Source: Pseudomonadota bacterium
GTDB lineage: Bacteria; Myxococcota_A; UBA9042; GCA-2863065
DNA length: 64,000 bases
Assembly (NCBI GenBank): GCA_005776725.1
Contig: SXOO01000158.1
Span: 2,769-66,768 of the forward strand
Direction of reading: 5' to 3'
How positions within the stretch are numbered: position 1 is the stretch's first letter; each line of letters opens with the position of its first letter. The notes beneath the pieces are model-generated. The model worked only from the letters and a program-made list of their open reading frames with translations, did not search any database and was not told the origin of the DNA. Shown here piece by piece: positions 56,040 to 63,218 of the stretch. Both the position numbers and the translations under genes were made by a program.

Positions 56040-59000
56040 ATGCCGTCTCGTTACGCCGTCCTGTTCGCCCTCGTGATGCCGCTCCGCGCCCTGGCCGACT
56101 GCTGCGCGCCCAACGCCAACCCAGGCTGCCCGGACAGCGGCGCCGTGCAGTCCTGCGTCTGCGCGAAGGACGCCTTCTGCTGCAGTACGGCGTGGGACGA
56201 GACGTGCATCGCCCTCGCCAAGAGCCAATGCAGCCTGACGTGCACGCTGCCCAAGGCCGAGACCTGCTGCCAGACGAACACCAATGCAGCGGGCTGCGCC
56301 GATCCGGTGGTGGAGAGCTGCGTCTGCGCGAGTCACCCTCCCTGCTGCACCAGCGCCTGGACGCCGGTCTGCATGCAGCTCGCGCGCAATACCTGCGGCG
56401 CCGACTGCCCCAAGGGCCAGTGTTGTCTGGGCAACATGGGCCTCGGCTGCGACGACCCGGCCGTCGAGAGCTGCGTGTGCGCTACGGACCCCTACTGCTG
56501 CACCACGAACTGGGACATCGCCTGCGCCAACGTGGCTCACGGGTGTGGCTGTGGCGGCTCGCAGGGCTGTTGTGAAGCCTCCTCCGCGTCCGGCTGCAGC
56601 GATGAAGACGTCCAGCTGTGTGTCTGTGAAGAGGATCCCGCTTGCTGCTCGGGCCAGTGGCACGCCGGCTGCGTCGCGCTCGCCGACCAGGCGTGTAACG
56701 CCCAGTGCCCGGCCGCGCTCGAGCCCTGCTGCAGCGCTCACGACTCCAAGTCGTGCGACGAGCCAGGCGTGGCCGCCGCGGTCTGTGCCAAGCGCCCCGA
56801 GTGCTGCTCGGGCCCGTGGACCCAGGAGTGCGCGGACCTCGCCGTGATCTCCGGCGACTGCCCGGCGCCGAAGGCCGACCCATGCACGCCGTCGCAGGTG
56901 GCTCGCGGCACCGTCGACCCCGAAGTCGAGGCGTGCGTGTGCGGGAAACGCGCCAGCTGCTGCACGCAGCGCTGGGACGCCGCCTGCGCCGTGCTCGCCA
57001 CGGCCTGCGGCGCTGTATGCACCACCGCCGGCTCGAACGACTGCTGCGTCGGCGACGTAGGAGCCACCGGCTGCGGGAGCTTCCCGGTCCAGGCCTGTGT
57101 CTGCGACGCGATTCCGAGCTGTTGCACCCTCGGCTGGGGTCTCACCTGCGCGTTCTACGCCGAGACGCACTGCGGCGTCCCGTGCCCGGCCACGAAGTGC
57201 TGCGAGGTGGATGGACGCCCCGGCGGCTGCGACGACGCCGAGATCACCCAGTGTGTCTGCGCCGCGGACCCCCACTGTTGCGAGGAGTGGGGGGGCGCCT
57301 GCGTGGCGCTCGCCGACGGCTGCGGCGCCGGGTGTTCGGGCCCGCCGCCGAAAGGGGCCTGCCTCGAGGCCCACTCGAGCAGCGGGTGCGCCACGGGCAC
57401 GATTGAAGGCTGTGTTTGTGCCGCGCTGCCCGAATGCTGTAGCGGCCCATGGGGCGCCGCCTGCGTGGATCGGGCGCAGGCCTGTACGCCGGACGTGTGC
57501 GGCGATGACCTCTGCACGCCTGGGGAGGGCTGCAGCGACTGCGCCGCCGACTGCGCCTGCGGGACCGGCGCGCAGTGTCTTTCAGGAGCGTGCGTGCCTC
57601 GCGACCTCTACTTCTTCGGCGGCATCCCCCTCCCTCAGGGCTGGGGTCAGCTCGGAGAGGTGGTGTTCGGCTGCGGCGCGCCCACCCTCCAGCGCTGCAC
57701 GGACCCTGCCTACCTGGATCGGCCGTGCGGGCGCGCGCTCCTCGTGGCGGCGCGCCAGGATCCGGACCATCCCTGCCACGCGTTCGCGCAGACGAACGGC
57801 AACGATGCCGCGGAGGCGATCACGGAGGCTCCGGAGCGCACGCTCCTGCCTAACCTTGCGTCCCGGCTGGTATCCCTCACTGCCCCGCCCCGGCCGCTGA
57901 CCGAGACGGCGGCGATCCCGGTTGCGCCAACGGAGCCTGCCCGGATACGGCGCGACACGCCCTGGGCGCAGGTCCCACCGAACTCGGAGGCCTTCGTCAA
58001 GGGGCTCTTCGAGGTCAACGGGGCAAGGGTCGCGTCGTGTGTCGAGGCGCTGTACGAGCGGCACTTCGACTATCACCGCTTCGAGGACGCCGCCGCCTCC
58101 GTCGAAGACGCCCGAGCGGTCTACCAGCTGGCCTACGGGCCCGTGGGCACGGCGTCCAGCATCGCTACGCGCACGATCAACGGCAGTGGGCTCCGGGCGC
58201 GCGATGGCTCCGTGTCCCGTCAGCTGGTGCTCGATCGCCGAGGGGCACGGAGCCCGTTCTTCGACATCCCGCCCACACTGTACGTGGCGCTTAGCCAGCG
58301 GCCCGATCTCAACCCGGCGGCGCCCTTCGCCAGCCTGGGCATCGGGACGACGCTGCCCCCCGGTTGGGCCGCGTGGCCGAAGCTGAGAGCCGGAATGCAG
58401 ACGGTCACCACGCGCTCATTCGTCTGGCACAGGGCGCGGAACGACGCGGCGATCGCAGCGGGTTACGACGACGTGCAGCTCCTGTCGTATGAACCCTTCA
58501 AGGAGCGGTTCCGCCAGCTCGTAGCGGCGGCTGAGGGCGCGCTTCAGCGCGCTGCGTTCCTTAACCGGCAGATCCCCAGCTTCCAGCCGCCCGTCGGGGT
58601 CGGGCCCGAGGAGCCCGAGCTCGAGGACCTGCCGGGTGCGCCCACAGCCCAGGATCTGGCCCGCGCCGACGCGCTGGCGGAGCGCCTGGTGGGGCGCGTC
58701 GTGGAGGCCCTCGTGGACGCGCGCGCACTCGGCTGCCTCGAGCCCGGGGTCACGCCATGCGACTGGTCGCCCGAGGACTTCGTGCGAGACGTTGCGTCCG
58801 CGGCGCTGCCGGGGCGCGAGCGCGATCTGCTGCGGTGCTACGAGGCCACGTCCACGTTCACGTTCTCGCAGCTGGCCAACTTCGCGCTCCCCACGCTGGG
58901 CACCAAGACCTACCCCGCGCGGGACTACCTCGCGAGCGCCTCGGCGTTGGACGATCTGACGGTCGAGAAGGAGGCCTGGGTGCGCGACGTCGTGGCGCAC

Positions 59001-59921
59001 GTGACGGGGCTTGGCCTCGCGGTGGTGGACGGCGTCCCGACCTTGGGCCAGGTCATGGATATGTTCCGGGACGCCCTGCCGGACCGGTGGTTCGGCTTCG
59101 ACACGGCGTTCCACTACGACTGGTCGCTGGTCGACGTGGCGGGCTCCGATCCGAACGAGCCGAGTGTGGACGTGCAGGCCTTCGCAGCCTTCGACGCCAC
59201 CGTTGTGGTGCTGGGCCGAACCGTGCCCCTGGCCGGGTTCCGGGCGGACTTCGGCGGGACCGTGGAACCGGCGGAGTCGTCCGTCCACGTCGAGCTTCTG
59301 GGAGCTACGCTCTACGCTGAGACCTTCAGTACGCGGGTGCCCCAGAGGTGGGACCTCGTGCGCACCCGGTACGAGGACAACGCCGAAATCCGCGCCGACG
59401 GCCCGATCTTCGTCATCGCCGGTGTCCCGATCCGTATCAGCGGAGGGATTGGGGGCTCGATCGCTTTCGACTTCGACATGACGGCGGCGGCACCGACCGC
59501 GGAGGTCCGCGCCGACCTTCGCACCACCTTCCGCCCATCCGCCGAGGTGTACGGTTTCCTTGAGGCGGCCGTGGACTACGCGATCGTCCGCGCGGGCATT
59601 CGCGGCGAGCTGGTGCTCATCGGCGCCGACATCCCGACCAACTTCTGGGCGCGCGTGAGCCTCGAGGACAACGCGTTCGTGGCGCGCGCCGCGGCCAGCT
59701 CAATCGCAACGCTGCGCAGCCTCAACGGCCGCTTCAAGTTGTTCGCCGAGATCAACCTCGGGATCACGAAGGAGCGCTACGAGAAGCGGATCGCGAGCTG
59801 GCGTGGCGTCGAGACCCGCGGGACGCTCTTCGCTACGGACTTCGAGGTGCCGCTCTTCGGGCTGATCGAGGCGTGTGCCATCCCCGGCGCGCTCGTCTGC
59901 GAGTCCAGCGATGCGCCGTAG
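56040..59921 (+). CDS. secreted 1293-aa protein: 9 x ten-Cys repeat module plus ~800-aa unassigned C-terminal region
   Basis: ORF 56040..59921. Signal peptide MPSRYAVLFALVMPLRALA/D. Repeat array at residues 20-487. CGDDLCTPGEGCSDCAADCACG motif. The remainder has no motif I recognise. Confidence 0.8.
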   Translation: MPSRYAVLFALVMPLRALADCCAPNANPGCPDSGAVQSCVCAKDAFCCSTAWDETCIALAKSQCSLTCTLPKAETCCQTNTNAAGCADPVVESCVCASHPPCCTSAWTPVCMQLARNTCGADCPKGQCCLGNMGLGCDDPAVESCVCATDPYCCTTNWDIACANVAHGCGCGGSQGCCEASSASGCSDEDVQLCVCEEDPACCSGQWHAGCVALADQACNAQCPAALEPCCSAHDSKSCDEPGVAAAVCAKRPECCSGPWTQECADLAVISGDCPAPKADPCTPSQVARGTVDPEVEACVCGKRASCCTQRWDAACAVLATACGAVCTTAGSNDCCVGDVGATGCGSFPVQACVCDAIPSCCTLGWGLTCAFYAETHCGVPCPATKCCEVDGRPGGCDDAEITQCVCAADPHCCEEWGGACVALADGCGAGCSGPPPKGACLEAHSSSGCATGTIEGCVCAALPECCSGPWGAACVDRAQACTPDVCGDDLCTPGEGCSDCAADCACGTGAQCLSGACVPRDLYFFGGIPLPQGWGQLGEVVFGCGAPTLQRCTDPAYLDRPCGRALLVAARQDPDHPCHAFAQTNGNDAAEAITEAPERTLLPNLASRLVSLTAPPRPLTETAAIPVAPTEPARIRRDTPWAQVPPNSEAFVKGLFEVNGARVASCVEALYERHFDYHRFEDAAASVEDARAVYQLAYGPVGTASSIATRTINGSGLRARDGSVSRQLVLDRRGARSPFFDIPPTLYVALSQRPDLNPAAPFASLGIGTTLPPGWAAWPKLRAGMQTVTTRSFVWHRARNDAAIAAGYDDVQLLSYEPFKERFRQLVAAAEGALQRAAFLNRQIPSFQPPVGVGPEEPELEDLPGAPTAQDLARADALAERLVGRVVEALVDARALGCLEPGVTPCDWSPEDFVRDVASAALPGRERDLLRCYEATSTFTFSQLANFALPTLGTKTYPARDYLASASALDDLTVEKEAWVRDVVAHVTGLGLAVVDGVPTLGQVMDMFRDALPDRWFGFDTAFHYDWSLVDVAGSDPNEPSVDVQAFAAFDATVVVLGRTVPLAGFRADFGGTVEPAESSVHVELLGATLYAETFSTRVPQRWDLVRTRYEDNAEIRADGPIFVIAGVPIRISGGIGGSIAFDFDMTAAAPTAEVRADLRTTFRPSAEVYGFLEAAVDYAIVRAGIRGELVLIGADIPTNFWARVSLEDNAFVARAAASSIATLRSLNGRFKLFAEINLGITKERYEKRIASWRGVETRGTLFATDFEVPLFGLIEACAIPGALVCESSDAP
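56097..57500 (+). repeat. coding tandem array, 9 copies of ~50-aa Cys-rich module (period ~150-160 nt)
   Basis: Each unit follows CC-x5-8-C-x7-8-CVC-x5-CC-x2-3-W-x3-C-x6-8-C-x1-4-C. DNA landmark tgYgtNtgYg recurs at about 56156, 56326, 56471, 56624, 56933, 57097, 57252 and 57411. Confidence 0.85.
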
Positions 59922-61629
59922 GCTCGGGCTGGCCGTCATCGTCGGCCTGGCGGTGGTGGGTGCGGCGTGGCGCGCCTGGGAGCTGCCGGTGGACGCACCC
60001 TCCGTCGCTGGCGATGCCTCCGCGGCGCGAGTCGGCGCAACGGCTCCACCGTCGCCTGGCCCGTTGGCCGCCAGCGTTCCGGCGTCGACCGACTGGCGGG
60101 TGCGCCTCGCCGTGGAGTCGTCGCTCCGCGTCGGCGAACAAGCGCTGGACGGTCGTGTCGTGTTGGACGCCGACCTGAGGCTCACGCAGGAAGGCCCGGG
60201 AGTTTTCCGCGCGGGGTTCTCCGCCGTGCGTGCCGCCAGTGCCGCCGTCATGGGCGTGCCCTTCAGCGGCCAACTCACCCACGCCGTGGCGCGCCTCACG
60301 CTGGGCTCGGACGGCGCCCTGGTCGGCCTCTCCGTCTCCAAGGGCGCCTCGCCGCTCTTCACGCACCTCATGGGCATGCTGGCGCGCGAGACCTTCCCGC
60401 CCACCGGCGGCGGCCGCACTCGTCAGGAGGTCAGCGCTGTGGGGGAGGCGCAAGCGGTCTATAGGTTCGGCCCCGCAGGTTTCACGCGCGCCCGACGGTA
60501 CAAGGCGCCGGGGACCGCCGCCGCAACGCTCACGCTGGCGTGCCCCCCGGGCGTCGACCCGGGAGCGCTCATCTGTGTGGAGCGCTTCCACGCCACCGAG
60601 CGCCTCGACGACGGGCGGGGCTTCTCGGCGAGCCTCGACGCCGAGCGCGTGCGCATCGGGACCACGGAGGTGGCGGTGATGTCGCTCGCCACTCCCACCG
60701 CCGTGGCACCGCCCGCTGCGCCCGCCACGCCGATGCCGGCGCTCACCCAGACTGCGCTGCTGGGGACGCTCGCCGCGCCCCCCGCCCCGGGGGCGGAGCG
60801 CGCCCGCTTTGCCTGGGACGCCACACGCACGCTCGCGCTGGATCCTGCGGCCGTGCGCGCGACTGAGGCGCAGCTACGCCGATCGCGAGGCCCCGATCGC
60901 GACCTGGGCCTCGACCTCCTCGCTCAAGCGGGCACGCCGGCAGCGCAGGCGGCGTTCGTTCGCCTCGTGGAGGACGCGGTCCACGAGGAACGCCCTGAGG
61001 CCGCGGCCGAGCTCCAGCGTTCGGTGCTGATCCCGGCGCCCACAGCGGAGACACGCGCGGCGCTCGATCGATGGTGGACGAACGGGCCCTCGCGCGACGT
61101 GCGCCTCGCCGCGGCGCACGCGCTAGGCGCGGCGTCGGCGGGCGACGAGGCGGTGGCGAAGCGGCTCGCTGACGCGGCGCGCGGGAGCGACCGCCCGGCC
61201 CTCTTGGGGGCGCTCGGCAACACCGACACGACCACCGCCGCCGCTGTCCTGCAAGCCGCACTGGCGGAGGGAGGGGAGGCCGCGGTCTCGGCTGCCCGGG
61301 GCCTCCGACACCACCCGGTGGCGCTGCCGGCTCTCGTGGCGCGACTGGCGGGCGAGCTTGCACTGGCGCGCGCCGCGCTCGATGCGCTCACCACGCTCGC
61401 CCGCTCGTCGCCCGAGGTGGTGCCGTCCGTGGCGGCGGCAGGGGTGGCTGGGGCGATCAACCCCAAGCTGGCGGGCCAGCTCCTAACGTTCTTTCAGCGA
61501 CATCTCGCCGGGCCAAACCGCCCGGCGCTCGTCGCGGCTGCAGCCGTGATCGCGGAGCTCCCCGGGGTGGACCCGGTGACGCGCGGCCGGATGCGTGACT
61601 TCGTCATCCTCGCCGGAGCCCCCTCATGA
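59911..61629 (+). CDS. membrane-anchored hypothetical protein with Ala-rich HEAT/ARM-like C-terminal repeats
   Basis: Frame of ORF 59875..61629; ATG at 59911 (11-nt overlap with the upstream stop). MRRRLGLAVIVGLAVVGAAW anchor, a beta-rich ~250-aa region, then helical repeats (DVRLAAAHALGAASAGDEAVAKRLADAARGSDRPALLGALGNT...). Confidence 0.65.
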   Translation: MRRRLGLAVIVGLAVVGAAWRAWELPVDAPSVAGDASAARVGATAPPSPGPLAASVPASTDWRVRLAVESSLRVGEQALDGRVVLDADLRLTQEGPGVFRAGFSAVRAASAAVMGVPFSGQLTHAVARLTLGSDGALVGLSVSKGASPLFTHLMGMLARETFPPTGGGRTRQEVSAVGEAQAVYRFGPAGFTRARRYKAPGTAAATLTLACPPGVDPGALICVERFHATERLDDGRGFSASLDAERVRIGTTEVAVMSLATPTAVAPPAAPATPMPALTQTALLGTLAAPPAPGAERARFAWDATRTLALDPAAVRATEAQLRRSRGPDRDLGLDLLAQAGTPAAQAAFVRLVEDAVHEERPEAAAELQRSVLIPAPTAETRAALDRWWTNGPSRDVRLAAAHALGAASAGDEAVAKRLADAARGSDRPALLGALGNTDTTTAAAVLQAALAEGGEAAVSAARGLRHHPVALPALVARLAGELALARAALDALTTLARSSPEVVPSVAAAGVAGAINPKLAGQLLTFFQRHLAGPNRPALVAAAAVIAELPGVDPVTRGRMRDFVILAGAPS

Positions 61630-63218
61630 TCAGACGACTGTTCTCCCTGTGCCTTGCCAGCGTGCTCGTGGCTTGCGGTGCTGCTTCGCCGGACGCGACG
61701 CCTGCAGACACCCTCACGTCCTCCGAAGAGGTGGGCCCCGCCGACTCCTCCTCCCCGGACGACGTGCTCGGGACCGAGGACGTGCTCGAGGCGGACGCGC
61801 CTCCTTCCGAGGACGCTGGGTCGGAAGACATCACGGCGTCGGACGACGTCCCGGCGCCGGAGGACGCGCCAGCCCCCGACGACGCGCCAGCCCCCGAGGA
61901 CGCGCCCGCTCCCGAGGACCTCGGGACGCTGGACGACGTCGCGGTGCCCGAGGATGGCGGAGCACTGGACGACGCCCCGTCGCCGGACGACGTCCCTGCG
62001 CCAGACGATGGGGGGGCGCTGGACGACGCCGCGTCGCCGGACGACGTCACGGCACCGGACGACGCGCCCCTACCTGAGGACGTGGGTACGCCGGACGACC
62101 TGACCGCACCGGACGACGTAGGCACTCCGGTGGGCGAGGCGGCCTGTAACGACGGCCTCGACGACGACGGGGACGACGCCATCGACTGCGCCGATTCGGA
62201 TTGTGCGGAGGTCAGCCCGTGCGACGCGCCCAGCACGTGCTGCACCGAGGGTGGGGCATGCGCCGAGCTCGCCGTGGCGGCGTGTGTTTGCGCGGAAGAC
62301 CCCGCGTGCTGCGCGGGCCCCTGGGACGCCTTCTGCGCCGCGCGGGCCGCCACCTGCGGCGGGCGCTGCGGCGCCACCGCGAGCTGCTGCGCGCCCGCGC
62401 CCACTTCGGGCTGCGCTGATGCGGACGTCACGAGCTGCGTGTGCGCGCTGCGGCCCCAGTGCTGCGAAGGCGCTTGGGACCTCGGTTGCACCGCAGCAGC
62501 GGCCGGGTGTGGCGCGTCGTGCCCCGGGGTTGTCCCCCCAGAGAACTGCACGAACGACGCCGACGACGACGGCGACGGGGCGATCGACTGCGAGGACGCC
62601 GGGTGCATCGCTCAGGCCGCCTGCGCGGCGCCCGCGCCGAACTGCTGCACCCCGCACCCGGGCGGAGGATGCTCCACGTCGGCAGCGCAGGAAGCCTGCG
62701 TCTGCGCGCTGGAACCTGCGTGTTGCCAGGAGTCGTGGGACCTGATCTGCGTGGCGAGAGCCCTCGACACGTGCGGCGCCACCTGCGCTCCTCCGGACGA
62801 GGACTGCACCGGAGGCGTGGACGAGGACCTCGACGGGCTCGCGGACTGCCTGGATCCCAGCTGCGCCGACGTGTTCCCGTGCTCGCTGCTGGCGCCGCCT
62901 TGCTGCGAGCCCAGCGTATTCCCGGGTTGCGCGCTCCCGGCCGTAGAAGCGTGCGTCTGCGCCGAGGCGCCAGAGTGCTGCACGGGCCCGTGGGGGCCGG
63001 ACTGCGCCGCCGCGGCAGGAACGTGCGGGATGCCCTGCCCAGTGGGGCCCGCCGACGGGCCGTGCTGCGCGGCAACGCTCGGGCTGCCCGGTTGCGGGGC
63101 CGCGCCAGCGGTGGAGGCGTGCGTCTGCGCGCTCGACAGCACGTGCTGCTCCATCGGCTGGGATGCCGCGTGCGTCGCCTTGAGCGTGGCGGCCAGCTGT
63201 CAGACGTGCGCTGACTGA
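61626..63218 (+). CDS. lipoprotein: acidic Pro/Asp spacer plus 5 x ten-Cys repeat module interleaved with Asp-rich Cys motifs
   Basis: ORF 61626..63218 (ATGA overlap with the upstream stop). Lipobox ASVLVAC. Residues ~36-170 are DDVPAPEDAPAPDDAPAPEDAPAPED... Repeats run from residue 205 to the C-terminus. Confidence 0.8.
   Translation: MIRRLFSLCLASVLVACGAASPDATPADTLTSSEEVGPADSSSPDDVLGTEDVLEADAPPSEDAGSEDITASDDVPAPEDAPAPDDAPAPEDAPAPEDLGTLDDVAVPEDGGALDDAPSPDDVPAPDDGGALDDAASPDDVTAPDDAPLPEDVGTPDDLTAPDDVGTPVGEAACNDGLDDDGDDAIDCADSDCAEVSPCDAPSTCCTEGGACAELAVAACVCAEDPACCAGPWDAFCAARAATCGGRCGATASCCAPAPTSGCADADVTSCVCALRPQCCEGAWDLGCTAAAAGCGASCPGVVPPENCTNDADDDGDGAIDCEDAGCIAQAACAAPAPNCCTPHPGGGCSTSAAQEACVCALEPACCQESWDLICVARALDTCGATCAPPDEDCTGGVDEDLDGLADCLDPSCADVFPCSLLAPPCCEPSVFPGCALPAVEACVCAEAPECCTGPWGPDCAAAAGTCGMPCPVGPADGPCCAATLGLPGCGAAPAVEACVCALDSTCCSIGWDAACVALSVAASCQTCAD
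61731..62135 (+). repeat. low-complexity coding repeat (Asp/Glu/Pro/Ala; 15-18-nt units such as gacgcgccagcccccgaS)
   Basis: gaggacgcgccagcccccgacgacgcgccagcccccgaggacgcgcccgctcccgaggac..., plus longer ~54-nt units (ggRgcRctggacgacgccScgtcgccggacgacgtc). Confidence 0.8.
62238..63215 (+). repeat. coding array, 5 copies of the same ten-Cys module as 56097-57500
   Basis: CCTEGGACAELAVAACVCAEDPACCAGPWDAFCAARAATCGGRC; CCAPAPTSGCADADVTSCVCALRPQCCEGAWDLGCTAAAAGCGASC; CCTPHPGGGCSTSAAQEACVCALEPACCQESWDLICVARALDTCGATC; CCEPSVFPGCALPAVEACVCAEAPECCTGPWGPDCAAAAGTCGMPC; CCAATLGLPGCGAAPAVEACVCALDSTCCSIGWDAACVALSVAASCQTC. Confidence 0.85.

What the first reader, a model, noticed from the sequence alone, without database searches (positions are those of the whole stretch)
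62139..63215. Second array of the same module, interleaved with three Asp-rich Cys motifs, on a lipoprotein
Seen: five more ten-Cys units fill the C-terminal 325 aa of the 530-aa lipoprotein. Before unit 1, and between units 2/3 and 3/4, sit three copies of a ~27-aa motif:
- ACNDGLDDDGDDAIDCADSDCAEVSPC
- NCTNDADDDGDGAIDCEDAGCIAQAAC
- DCTGGVDEDLDGLADCLDPSCADVFPC
Established knowledge: such D-x-D-x-D-G/CxD motifs resemble the Ca2+/metal-binding Asp-rich Cys motifs (MopE-like or thrombospondin type-3-like) common in myxobacterial secreted proteins.
Inference: the same module is displayed both on a membrane-tethered lipoprotein and on a secreted giant. That could allow module-module pairing, or a shared ligand at the cell surface.
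Basis: partly seen in the sequence, partly recalled or inferred. Interest (0 to 1): 0.6.

Follow-up and report, generated by a model that had tools for sequence, protein, structure and literature searches.

The report
Lipoprotein mixing calcium-binding and ten-cysteine modules
This gene encodes an extremely acidic, lipid-anchored envelope protein built from two already catalogued cysteine-rich repeats (a teneurin-like calcium-binding loop and the uncharacterised DUF8252 module); the mixture is rare, but it is ordinary domain shuffling and not a new kind of system.

Summary
Window 61626-63218 (+) encodes a 530-aa lipoprotein. It has lipobox LVAC, a ~150-aa Asp/Pro stalk, then five ten-Cys units interleaved with three 27-aa Asp-rich four-Cys motifs, in the order a-U-U-a-U-a-U-U.

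Neither module is new:
- The Asp-rich motif passes NCBIfam NF033662 (acid_disulf_rpt). Its closest solved relative is the three-Ca2+ "C-rich" domain of animal teneurins (PDB 7PLP, profile E = 2e-6). It gives no MopE or TSP_3 Pfam hit.
- The ten-Cys unit is Pfam PF26780 (DUF8252), function unknown, with no PDB relative.

The scan had already met both modules on other DNA.

Specific to this gene:
- Only 13 of 256 family proteins examined mix the two modules.
- The mature protein has net charge -98 and no lysine.
- It is the third gene of a coupled operon that is complete in one other MAG. A third assembly holds the P2-P3 junction.

Units match the same-position units of orthologues. They are no closer to the neighbouring giant's units than to foreign family members, so there is no gene conversion.

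Most likely this is a Ca2+-stiffened, disulfide-locked display array that accompanies the secreted giant. Direct module pairing is untested and looks electrostatically unfavourable.

The parts
61626..63218 (+). P3 gene: 530-aa lipoprotein, last gene of the operon
   Evidence: ORF and translation. Orthologues are P0004 (59-64% identity) and P0007 (48%). ATGA overlap with the upstream stop.
61626..61676 (+). Signal peptide with lipobox L-V-A-C (Cys17)
   Evidence: Read from the sequence. Equivalent lipoboxes are seen in P0004-P0007.
61686..62141 (+). Acidic Asp/Pro/Ala stalk, residues 21-172, no basic residue, encoded by 18-nt tandem units
   Evidence: Composition: 36 D, 26 P, 25 A, 12 E, and no K or R. 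Repeat family D1 has 17 copies at 18-nt spacing.
62142..62222 (+). Acid motif a1 (residues 173-199): NF033662 / teneurin C-rich-like, with all eight Ca-ligand positions kept
62238..62369 (+). DUF8252 unit U1 (residues 205-248)
   Evidence: 28.0 bits with the foreign-only HMM.
62385..62522 (+). DUF8252 unit U2 (residues 254-299)
   Evidence: 35.1 bits.
62544..62624 (+). Acid motif a2 (residues 307-333): two peripheral ligand positions changed (D840N, D856G in teneurin-4 numbering)
62643..62786 (+). DUF8252 unit U3 (residues 340-387)
   Evidence: 37.9 bits. The AF2 model of a2+U3 has pLDDT 90.5.
62802..62882 (+). Acid motif a3 (residues 393-419): D840G and D856S, with the core five Asp kept
62901..63038 (+). 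DUF8252 unit U4 (residues 426-471)
   Evidence: 40.0 bits.
63063..63209 (+). DUF8252 unit U5 (residues 480-528)
   Evidence: 32.8 bits.
59911..61629 (+). P2: membrane-anchored protein with a beta-rich N-terminal part and PBS/HEAT-type repeats; translationally coupled to P1 and P3
   Evidence: The profile hits alphaRep/HEAT structures at E = 2.5e-26. Orthologues are in L001/L082 and L055.
56040..59921 (+). P1: secreted 1293-aa protein with nine DUF8252 units (56100-57500) and a 773-aa C-terminal domain (57600-59918)
   Evidence: The orthologue P0124 is 44% identical.

Best explanation
P3 is an exported, lipid-anchored envelope protein. From the acylated Cys17 it runs through a roughly 150-residue disordered polyanionic Asp/Pro tether. 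It then forms a compact 359-residue array of eight small modules joined by linkers of only 5-8 residues.

Five modules are DUF8252 (PF26780) units. Each is predicted as three short helices locked by five disulfides. Three modules are NF033662 acidic double-disulfide loops, homologous to the Ca2+-binding C-rich domain of teneurins.

Proposed mechanism:
- The array is oxidised in the periplasm, to about 31 disulfides.
- The acidic loops load Ca2+. The five core Asp ligands are kept in all three loops, and all eight ligand positions are kept in a1.
- The loops then act as calcium-stiffened joints between DUF8252 units. The result is a rigid, Lys-free array held away from the membrane; protease resistance is my own guess from the near absence of Lys and Arg.
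- P3 is an accessory third component of a conserved P1-P2 pair. It appears only where P1 also carries a DUF8252 array.
- So it most likely presents the same binding module at the cell envelope that P1 carries in soluble form. The two would address a common, probably cationic or Ca2+-bridged, target rather than each other.

Shown: anatomy, family memberships, orthology, operon coupling. Inferred: Ca2+ binding, rigidity, outer-membrane location, shared target.

My odds by step: module identities about 0.9; Ca2+ binding about 0.75; stiff display array about 0.5; functional partner of P1 through a shared target about 0.35.
For: **Anatomy.**

**Acid motif.**
- NF033662 scores 55.4 bits against a cut-off of 41.
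- The acid-motif profile hits teneurin-4 C-rich 7PLP at E = 2e-6, 7BAM at 4.4e-4, and also teneurin-3, teneurin-2 and Ten-m.
- The crystal structure shows three Ca2+ bound by E835, D840, D843, N844, D845, D847, D851, D854 and D856 (PMC9058538).
- D843, D845, D847, D851 and D854 are invariant in all nine motifs of P3, P0004 and P0007.
- Foldseek of the a2+U3 model picks out only teneurin-4 (39 columns, 36% identity, E = 1.3).

**DUF8252 unit.**
- Homologues carry PF26780 / DUF8252.
- An HMM built only from foreign units recognises all five P3 units.
- The AF2 composite model has pLDDT 90.5, with three helices in the unit.

**Conservation.**
- Units are positionally orthologous with P0004 (u1 100/84, u5 99/88). 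Each position has therefore been kept since the species diverged.
- The operon P1-P2-P3 is conserved in L001/L082. The P2-P3 junction is conserved in L055.
- Of 21 loci holding P1 C-domain homologues, only the orthologue has a P3-like neighbour, and it is also the one whose P1 has a long DUF8252 array.

**Charge.** The mature protein has net charge -98, with 0 Lys and 4 Arg.
Against: - No experiment exists on DUF8252 or on any bacterial NF033662 repeat. Literature searches for both names returned no papers.
- Motifs a2 and a3 lack two of the eight teneurin ligand positions. The bacterial motif has four Cys, not six, so Ca2+ stoichiometry may be lower.
- Rigidity of the a-U junction is not shown: pTM is 0.64 and no PAE was available.
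- Lipoproteins with the same mixed architecture (P0005, P0006, P0025) lie in unrelated gene contexts. The array therefore does not need P1.
- The link between a DUF8252-bearing P1 and the presence of P3 rests on a single evolutionary event.
- The operon was not found in two same-genus genomes that are 91-94% complete.
Confidence: 0.5

Rival explanations
1. Direct module-module pairing. The DUF8252 array of secreted P1 docks, perhaps through Ca2+ bridges, onto the DUF8252 array of lipoprotein P3. P3 would then be the cell-surface receptor or tether for P1.
For: - The same module is present on both proteins of one translationally coupled operon.
- The arrangement is conserved in a second genome.
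- P1 C-domain homologues without a DUF8252 array have no P3-like neighbour.
- Ca2+-binding motifs are available as possible bridges.
Against: - Every unit in both arrays is net negative: -18 summed over P3 units and -36 over P1 units.
- P3 units are no more similar to P1 units (30%) than to units of unrelated organisms (32%). There is no co-clustering or conversion tract.
- Mixed a/U lipoproteins occur without any P1 homologue nearby.
- A P1 paralogue with two units has no P3.
- No multimer prediction was possible.
Confidence: 0.15
2. Autonomous polyanionic cation sink or matrix protein. P3 works alone as a Ca2+/divalent-cation-binding surface or periplasmic protein, for example cation buffering, mineral or exopolymer attachment, or envelope spacing. 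Its place in the operon would be incidental.
For: - Net charge is -98, with 102 Asp+Glu and three Ca2+-type motifs.
- Similar lipoproteins (P0005, P0006, P0024, P0025, and the C25 protein of the same genome) stand in unrelated contexts.
- Pure arrays of either module on lipoproteins are common.
Against: - The ATGA coupling to P2 is conserved in three assemblies.
- P3 is absent beside P1 homologues that lack DUF8252.
- Unit-by-unit positional conservation suggests specific surfaces rather than bulk charge.
Confidence: 0.2
3. Carbohydrate-binding array. DUF8252 units would be small disulfide-rich CBM-like modules (by analogy with hevein/CBM18 or CBM14). The invariant Trp would stack on a sugar ring, and the protein would tether the cell to a polysaccharide.
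For: - One Trp is invariant in all 14 window units.
- The unit is small, disulfide-rich, extracellular and tandemly repeated.
- The resemblance to small CBMs comes from my own knowledge, not from a test.
Against: - There is no sequence or fold match to any CBM or other PDB entry.
- A single aromatic residue in a 46-residue five-disulfide domain is as likely to be core as ligand-binding.
- There are no glycoside hydrolases in the operon.
Confidence: 0.1
4. Copper or other metal-thiolate binding (MopE-like or metallothionein-like) by the Cys- and Asp-rich motifs.
For: One distant homologue (P0077) carries PF11617 elsewhere in its sequence.
Against: - No PF11617 hit at E <= 10, either on the motifs or on the whole array.
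- Cys positions are lost in pairs across 799 units, (C1,C3) 39 times and (C4,C9) 39 times. This is the signature of disulfides, not of metal clusters.
- The protein is exported to an oxidising compartment.
- The solved homologue uses Asp carboxylates for Ca2+ and its Cys residues for disulfides.
Confidence: 0.03

Closest known systems
NCBIfam NF033662, acid_disulf_rpt (acidic double-disulfide repeat)
   Same: The three Asp-rich motifs match this curated 32-position model above its cut-off (55.4 against 41 bits). They share its four Cys, the DDDGDG core, and its occurrence in exported proteins of Myxococcota and other environmental bacteria.
   Different: Here the repeat is not in the usual long tandem array (7-16 copies in most hits). 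It occurs as single copies, each placed directly in front of a DUF8252 unit.
Teneurin C-rich domain (human teneurin-4 residues 834-871, PDB 7PLP; PMC9058538)
   Same: There is profile-level sequence homology (E = 2e-6). The spacing C-x13-C-x4-C-x5-C is the same, and the acidic Ca2+ ligands are kept: all eight in a1 and the five core Asp in all motifs. Foldseek of the model also picks teneurin-4.
   Different: The teneurin domain has six Cys and three disulfides (1-3, 2-5, 4-6). The bacterial motif has four Cys, which predicts only 1-3 and 2-4. In teneurins the domain is single and leads into a TTR domain; here there are three copies leading into DUF8252 units. Ca2+ binding is not shown for the bacterial motif.
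Pfam PF26780, DUF8252
   Same: The ten-Cys unit (CC-x6-8-C-x6-8-CVC-x5-CC-x3-W-x3-C-x6-8-C-x3-C) is the repeat that makes up proteins pre-annotated with PF26780 (P0008, P0011 and about 35 more). An HMM built from those proteins recognises all five P3 units.
   Different: Most family members are pure tandem arrays: 80 of the 136 new top hits have only U. Here the units are interrupted by Ca2+-type motifs. The function of the family is unknown, so nothing can be compared at that level.
Thrombospondin type-3 repeats and LDL-receptor class A modules
   Same: They share DxDxDG-type acidic loops closed by disulfides that bind Ca2+. The teneurin paper states that Ca sites I and II resemble T3 repeats and site III resembles LA modules.
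   Different: There is no Pfam TSP_3 or Ldl_recept_a hit at E <= 10. The likeness is in coordination chemistry, not family membership.
Other mixed a/U lipoproteins (P0005, P0006, P0024/P0025/P0204)
   Same: Same design: lipobox, then acid repeats, then strictly alternating acid motif and DUF8252 unit, ending in U or UU.
   Different: They start with 3-8 tandem acid repeats instead of an Asp/Pro stalk. They lie in unrelated gene neighbourhoods without P1 or P2 homologues.

Membership tests
NCBIfam NF033662 acid_disulf_rpt | Score of the whole protein above the curated cut-off (41 bits) | tested here: met
   55.4 bits, E = 3.6e-15, three stretches. In the genome search the single motifs score 30.6-36.6 bits.
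NCBIfam NF033662 acid_disulf_rpt | Four Cys in a roughly 27-32-residue, strongly acidic repeat | tested here: met
   C-x13-C-x4-C-x5-C in all three motifs. C4, D9, D11, D13, D17, C18, D20, C23 and C29 are invariant in the 22-row alignment A3.
Teneurin C-rich Ca2+-binding domain | Detectable sequence homology to the solved domain | tested here: met
   Profile A3 against PDB: 7PLP E = 2e-6 (30.5 bits); teneurin-4, -3, -2 and Ten-m all hit at the same region.
Teneurin C-rich Ca2+-binding domain | Eight acidic Ca2+-coordinating side chains (E835, D840, D843, D845, D847, D851, D854, D856) plus N844 | tested here: inconclusive
   Motif a1 keeps all of them, with E at -3. Motif a2 has D840N and D856G. 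Motif a3 has D840G and D856S. The five central Asp are invariant in P3 and both orthologues (ligand list from PMC9058538).
Teneurin C-rich Ca2+-binding domain | Six Cys forming disulfides 1-3, 2-5 and 4-6 | tested here: not met
   Only four Cys are present. The equivalents of C858 and C869 are absent. I therefore treat the motif as a homologous, simpler bacterial repeat and not as a member of the animal domain family.
Teneurin C-rich Ca2+-binding domain | Binds three Ca2+ | not testable with these tools
   Needs ITC, crystallography or thermal-shift measurements on recombinant protein.
Pfam PF26780 DUF8252 | Match to the Pfam model above its gathering score | not testable with these tools
   The local Pfam copy lacks PF26780: P0006, P0008 and P0011 give no hit there although their precomputed annotation lists it. 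As a proxy, an HMM built from the units of P0005, P0006, P0008 and P0011 (three of the four PF26780-annotated) scores P3's units at 28-40 bits, against at most 6.3 in shuffles.
Pfam PF26780 DUF8252 | Ten-Cys pattern with CVC, CC and an invariant Trp | tested here: met
   All five P3 units have ten Cys. C1, V17, C18, C24, C25, W29, C33 and C44 are invariant in the 14 window units.
Pfam PF11617 Cu-binding_MopE | Match to the Pfam model | tested here: not met
   No hit at E <= 1 on the protein, and none at E <= 10 on the three motifs or the whole array.
Pfam PF02412 TSP_3 (thrombospondin type-3 repeat) | Match to the Pfam model | tested here: not met
   No hit at E <= 10. Only an EF-hand_5 match at E = 1.7 on motif a2.
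Bacterial lipoprotein | Signal peptide ending in a lipobox [LVI][ASTVI][GAS]C | tested here: met
   MIRRLFSLCLASVLVAC|GAAS. Conserved as VAAC, LAAC, LGAC and LAAC in P0004, P0007, P0005 and P0006. Acylation itself is not testable here.

The most novel reading that the evidence does not exclude
The operon may encode a three-part envelope system. In it, an LLTP-like (microsomal-triglyceride-transfer-protein / vitellogenin-like) secreted lipid carrier (the P1 C-domain, perhaps completed by P2) would be docked to the cell by Ca2+-dependent homotypic pairing. The pairing would be between its DUF8252 array and the DUF8252 array of the lipoprotein P3. This would give DUF8252 its first function, as a bacterial calcium-dependent homophilic adhesion module, with the teneurin-like loops acting as the calcium switch.
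Probability: 0.08. Interest if true: 0.65.

Novelty: new member of a known kind. Interest (0 to 1): 0.3.

Why it matters
This report closes a question rather than opening one. The "unknown" Asp-rich motif has a curated name and a solved, calcium-binding animal homologue. The ten-Cys module is a catalogued DUF.

Three things remain of value:
- The gene is a clean natural example in which single teneurin-type Ca2+ loops serve as connectors between DUF8252 units. That makes it a convenient construct for the first biochemical and structural study of both modules: Ca2+ stoichiometry of the four-Cys bacterial form, and the disulfide map of DUF8252.
- The appearance of P3 together with a DUF8252-bearing P1 is the only hint so far that DUF8252 arrays act in pairs or on a shared target.
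- The neighbouring P1 C-domain gave an unexpected Foldseek match to large lipid transfer proteins. That lead deserves its own follow-up.

Tried and rejected
- **MopE, TSP_3 and LDL-A membership:** no Pfam hit even at E <= 10.
- **LED_rpt (PF20854):** 16.7 bits against a cut-off of 59 on the Asp/Pro stalk. I take this as a composition artefact.
- **PDB relatives of the ten-Cys unit:** by sequence only chance matches at E >= 0.5. By fold, nothing for the unit part.
- **Literature on PF26780, DUF8252 or 'acidic double-disulfide repeat':** 0 papers.
- **Gene conversion or concerted evolution between the P1 and P3 arrays:** rejected.
  - The tree pairs P3 units with the same-position units of the orthologue, not with each other or with P1.
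  - Identities show no excess between the two arrays.
  - DNA repeats between the arrays are only 60-77% identical over 30-101 nt.
- **Conserved context of the mixed lipoprotein P0005:** its neighbours are unrelated to P1 and P2.
- **Operon in close relatives:** not found in two same-genus genomes (91% and 94% complete) or in four of five other genomes of the family.
- **P3-like gene beside distant P1 C-domain homologues:** none in 20 loci. Two loci keep a P2 homologue.
- **Electrostatic complementarity between P1 and P3 units:** rejected, since all units are acidic.
- **AlphaFold-Multimer of P1 with P3:** not possible with the tools, which fold a single chain only.
Full report
**1. The observation**

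Window 61626-63218 (+) is an open frame of 530 codons. Its ATG overlaps the stop of the upstream gene as ATGA, and a GGAG lies about 8 nt upstream. The product begins MIRRLFSLCLASVLVAC|G, a signal peptide ending in a lipobox.

Residues 21-172 are an Asp/Pro/Ala/Glu stretch with no basic residue. It is encoded by 18-nt tandem units (family D1). The remaining 359 residues hold 62 Cys.

A pattern search finds five ten-Cys units at 205-248, 254-299, 340-387, 426-471 and 480-528. The three quoted 27-aa motifs lie at 173-199, 307-333 and 393-419. The order is a-U-U-a-U-a-U-U, and the modules are separated by only 5-8 residues.

The pattern is far beyond chance. An HMM built only from units of four foreign proteins scores the five units at 28-40 bits. 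The best score in 200 shuffles of the same residues is 6.3 bits.

**2. The Asp-rich motif**

The curated NCBIfam model NF033662 (acid_disulf_rpt, "acidic double-disulfide repeat") hits the protein in three stretches. The score is 55.4 bits, above the cut-off of 41. The same model finds the repeat in at least 15 other ORFs of this 7.4-Mb MAG.

Pfam gives no MopE (PF11617) or TSP_3 (PF02412) match, even at E <= 10 on the isolated motifs.

A profile of 22 such motifs (A3) searched against all PDB sequences finds one thing only: the cysteine-rich "C-rich" domain of teneurins.

| PDB entry | Protein | E-value |
|---|---|---|
| 7PLP | teneurin-4, isolated C-rich domain | 2e-6 |
| 7BAM | teneurin-4 | 4.4e-4 |
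| 8R54 | teneurin-3 | 1.4e-3 |
| 8FIA | Ten-m | 2.3e-3 |
| several | teneurin-2 | about 0.015 |

All hits fall at the same place in the protein. Foldseek of my AF2 model also returns only teneurin-4 (39 columns, 36% identity, E = 1.3).

The 1.5-Å structure of that domain shows three fully coordinated Ca2+. The ligands are E835, D840, D843, N844, D845, D847, D851, D854 and D856. Two sites resemble thrombospondin T3 repeats and one resembles LDL-receptor A modules. The disulfides are 1-3, 2-5 and 4-6 (PMC9058538).

Mapped onto P3:
- a1 keeps every ligand, including a Glu three residues before the first Cys.
- a2 has D840N and D856G.
- a3 has D840G and D856S.
- The five central Asp are invariant in all nine motifs of P3 and its orthologues P0004 and P0007.

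The bacterial motif has four Cys, equivalent to C838, C852, C857 and C863. This predicts disulfides 1-3 and 2-4.

"MopE-like" is not supported. The precise identity is NF033662, the bacterial counterpart of the teneurin C-rich domain.

I reached this before consulting the scan's earlier notes. Those notes show that the same link was made on several other genomes.

**3. The ten-Cys unit**

Many homologues returned for the array carry a precomputed PF26780 hit. A context table names that family DUF8252. The local Pfam copy is older and lacks it. This is why neither P3 nor the annotated homologues give a hit there.

An AF2 model of a2+U3, made with a 68-row alignment of composites and single modules (A2), is confident: pLDDT 90.5 and pTM 0.64. 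It shows three short helices in the unit. There is no PDB relative by sequence or by fold, and no paper mentions the family.

- (C1,C3) 39 times
- (C4,C9) 39 times
- (C5,C7) 3 times
- C2 together with C10 in several patterns

This is the signature of disulfides. It suggests the map C1-C3, C4-C9, C5-C7 and C2-C10, with C6-C8 by elimination. The map is an inference.

**4. How unusual the mixture is**

| Set examined | Only U | Only a | Both |
|---|---|---|---|
| 120 listed homologues | nearly all fall in one of these two classes | – | 6 besides P3 |

The composite-profile search covered 1.84 billion representatives and found 6390 clusters at E <= 1e-3.

In the 13 mixed proteins the commonest junction after "aa" is "aU" (33 cases). 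Every acid motif that is followed within 15 residues by a unit forms the same tight a-U composite. The architecture is rare but recurrent, and it is ordinary shuffling of two mobile extracellular repeats.

The same genome also has DUF8252 units in four other mosaic Cys-rich proteins. One of them is a second lipoprotein with an Asp/Pro stalk, on contig C25.

**5. Relation to the neighbouring array**

P1 (56040-59921) has nine units.

- **Tree.** In a maximum-likelihood tree of 68 units, P3 units pair with the same-position units of the orthologue P0004: u1 100/84, u5 99/88, u3 99/13, u4 91/48. They do not cluster by gene.
- **Identity.** Mean identity outside Cys-Cys columns is 30% for P3 against P1. 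It is 36% within P3 and 32% for P3 against units of unrelated organisms.
- **DNA.** Repeats between the two arrays are 60-77% identical over 30-101 nt.

The arrays are therefore old and positionally conserved. They are not homogenised, and they are not specially related to one another.

All units of both proteins are net negative. The mature P3 has 102 Asp+Glu, 4 Arg and no Lys, for a net charge of -98. Direct array-array pairing would have to be cation-bridged.

**6. Operon and distribution**

P1, P2 and P3 are translationally coupled. P1 and P2 overlap by 11 nt, and P2 and P3 share the ATGA.

- The three-gene arrangement recurs in a Myxococcota MAG (L001/L082). Its P1 is 44% identical with 11 units, its P2 is a homologue, and its P3 is 48% identical with architecture a-U-a-U-a-U-U.
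- A third assembly (L055) holds the P2-P3 junction. Its P2 tail is 69% identical and its P3 is 59-64% identical.
- The operon was not found in two same-genus genomes that are 91% and 94% complete.
- The P1 C-domain occurs in 17 of 401 sampled genomes of the phylum.
- In 21 loci with P1 C-domain homologues, only the orthologue has a P3-like neighbour. Two loci (L088, L096) keep an adjacent P2 homologue without P3 or DUF8252.

So P1C-P2 is the older core. P3 appears together with the long DUF8252 array on P1. This fits a functional link, but it rests on a single evolutionary event.

Mixed lipoproteins elsewhere (P0005, P0006, P0025) have unrelated neighbours.

P2's C-terminal half is made of PBS/HEAT-type repeats (alphaRep structures, E = 2.5e-26).

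**7. Most likely mechanism**

P3 is exported by the Sec-lipoprotein route and oxidised to about 31 disulfides. It is held on a long polyanionic tether.

The teneurin-type loops most likely bind Ca2+ and stiffen the junctions between DUF8252 units. The result would be a rigid, nearly Lys/Arg-free and therefore probably protease-resistant array.

From my own recollection of Myxococcus lipoprotein sorting rules, the +2 residue Gly, rather than Lys, suggests that P3 is not retained in the inner membrane. I did not test this.

Because P3 accompanies a P1 that carries the same module, I favour a common target for the two arrays over direct pairing. The ligand of DUF8252 is unknown.

**8. Verdict**

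Both modules are catalogued, and the scan has met both on other DNA. The new element is a rare mixed architecture in a small accessory operon. I class it as a new member of a known kind, of modest interest.

Noticed in passing
window 57600-59918 (P1 C-terminal 773 aa): An AF2 model (21-row alignment; pLDDT 72.9, pTM 0.50) shows a confident helical domain followed by a domain of long beta-hairpins. Foldseek's best PDB matches are large lipid transfer proteins: microsomal triglyceride transfer protein 6I7S (E = 7e-9, prob 1.0, 497 columns), lipovitellin 1LSH (8.6e-7) and honey-bee vitellogenin 9ENS (1.3e-3). TM-scores are low (about 0.19). Pore-formers and OMPs only appear at E >= 4e-3. This may be a bacterial LLTP-like lipid-binding module.
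   Followed up: partly
window 59911-61629 (P2); L088 12583-14427; L096 12151-14001: P2 has a beta-rich N-terminal part plus PBS/HEAT repeats (alphaRep E = 2.5e-26). It sits directly after P1 C-domain homologues also in a Bdellovibrionales MAG and a 'Deltaproteobacteria' MAG that lack P3 and DUF8252. P1C-P2 is therefore the conserved core pair. P2's layout recalls the N-terminal half of LLTPs, which I could not test.
   Followed up: partly
window 61677-63215 (mature P3): The mature protein has no lysine and only 4 arginines in 514 residues, against 102 Asp+Glu (net -98). Many NF033662 proteins are trypsin-like proteases, so depletion of Lys and Arg may protect against the organism's own secreted proteases. 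This is speculation.
   Followed up: no
window 61740-62118: The acidic stalk is encoded by 17 in-register copies of an 18-nt unit (65-86% identical). The orthologues P0004 and P0007 have similar PEDV/PDDV-type stalks of different length.
   Followed up: partly
G000 contig C25:37423-39537 (-): This is a second lipoprotein of the same genome with the same plan: lipobox, then an Asp/Pro stalk. It carries three eight-Cys variants of DUF8252 that lack C1 and C3, interleaved with a different Cys-rich module. The three units form one clade (95/85). Contigs C14, C224 and C124 carry single units inside proteins full of CGxDGCGGxCGxC repeats that end in a hydrophobic, Arg-rich C-terminal tail.
   Followed up: partly
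L056 543-1907 and 2013-4235: The mixed a/U lipoprotein P0006 lies immediately downstream of a DsbD-type thiol:disulfide interchange gene (Thioredox_DsbH + DsbD_TM). That is a plausible dedicated oxidoreductase for a protein with about 50 disulfides.
   Followed up: no
P0070 (Desulfuromonas versatilis protein): Bacterial proteins with nine NF033662 repeats also carry PF25020 (TTR_TEN1-4) / CarboxypepD_reg-type domains. This is the same C-rich-then-TTR order as in animal teneurins, and it fits a bacterial origin of that part of teneurins.
   Followed up: no
alignment of 799 DUF8252 units: About a third of units carry the fourth Cys three positions earlier (variant ..CEAxVC.. instead of ..VEACVC..). 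This subfamily has a shifted disulfide partner, seen for example in P0130.
   Followed up: no
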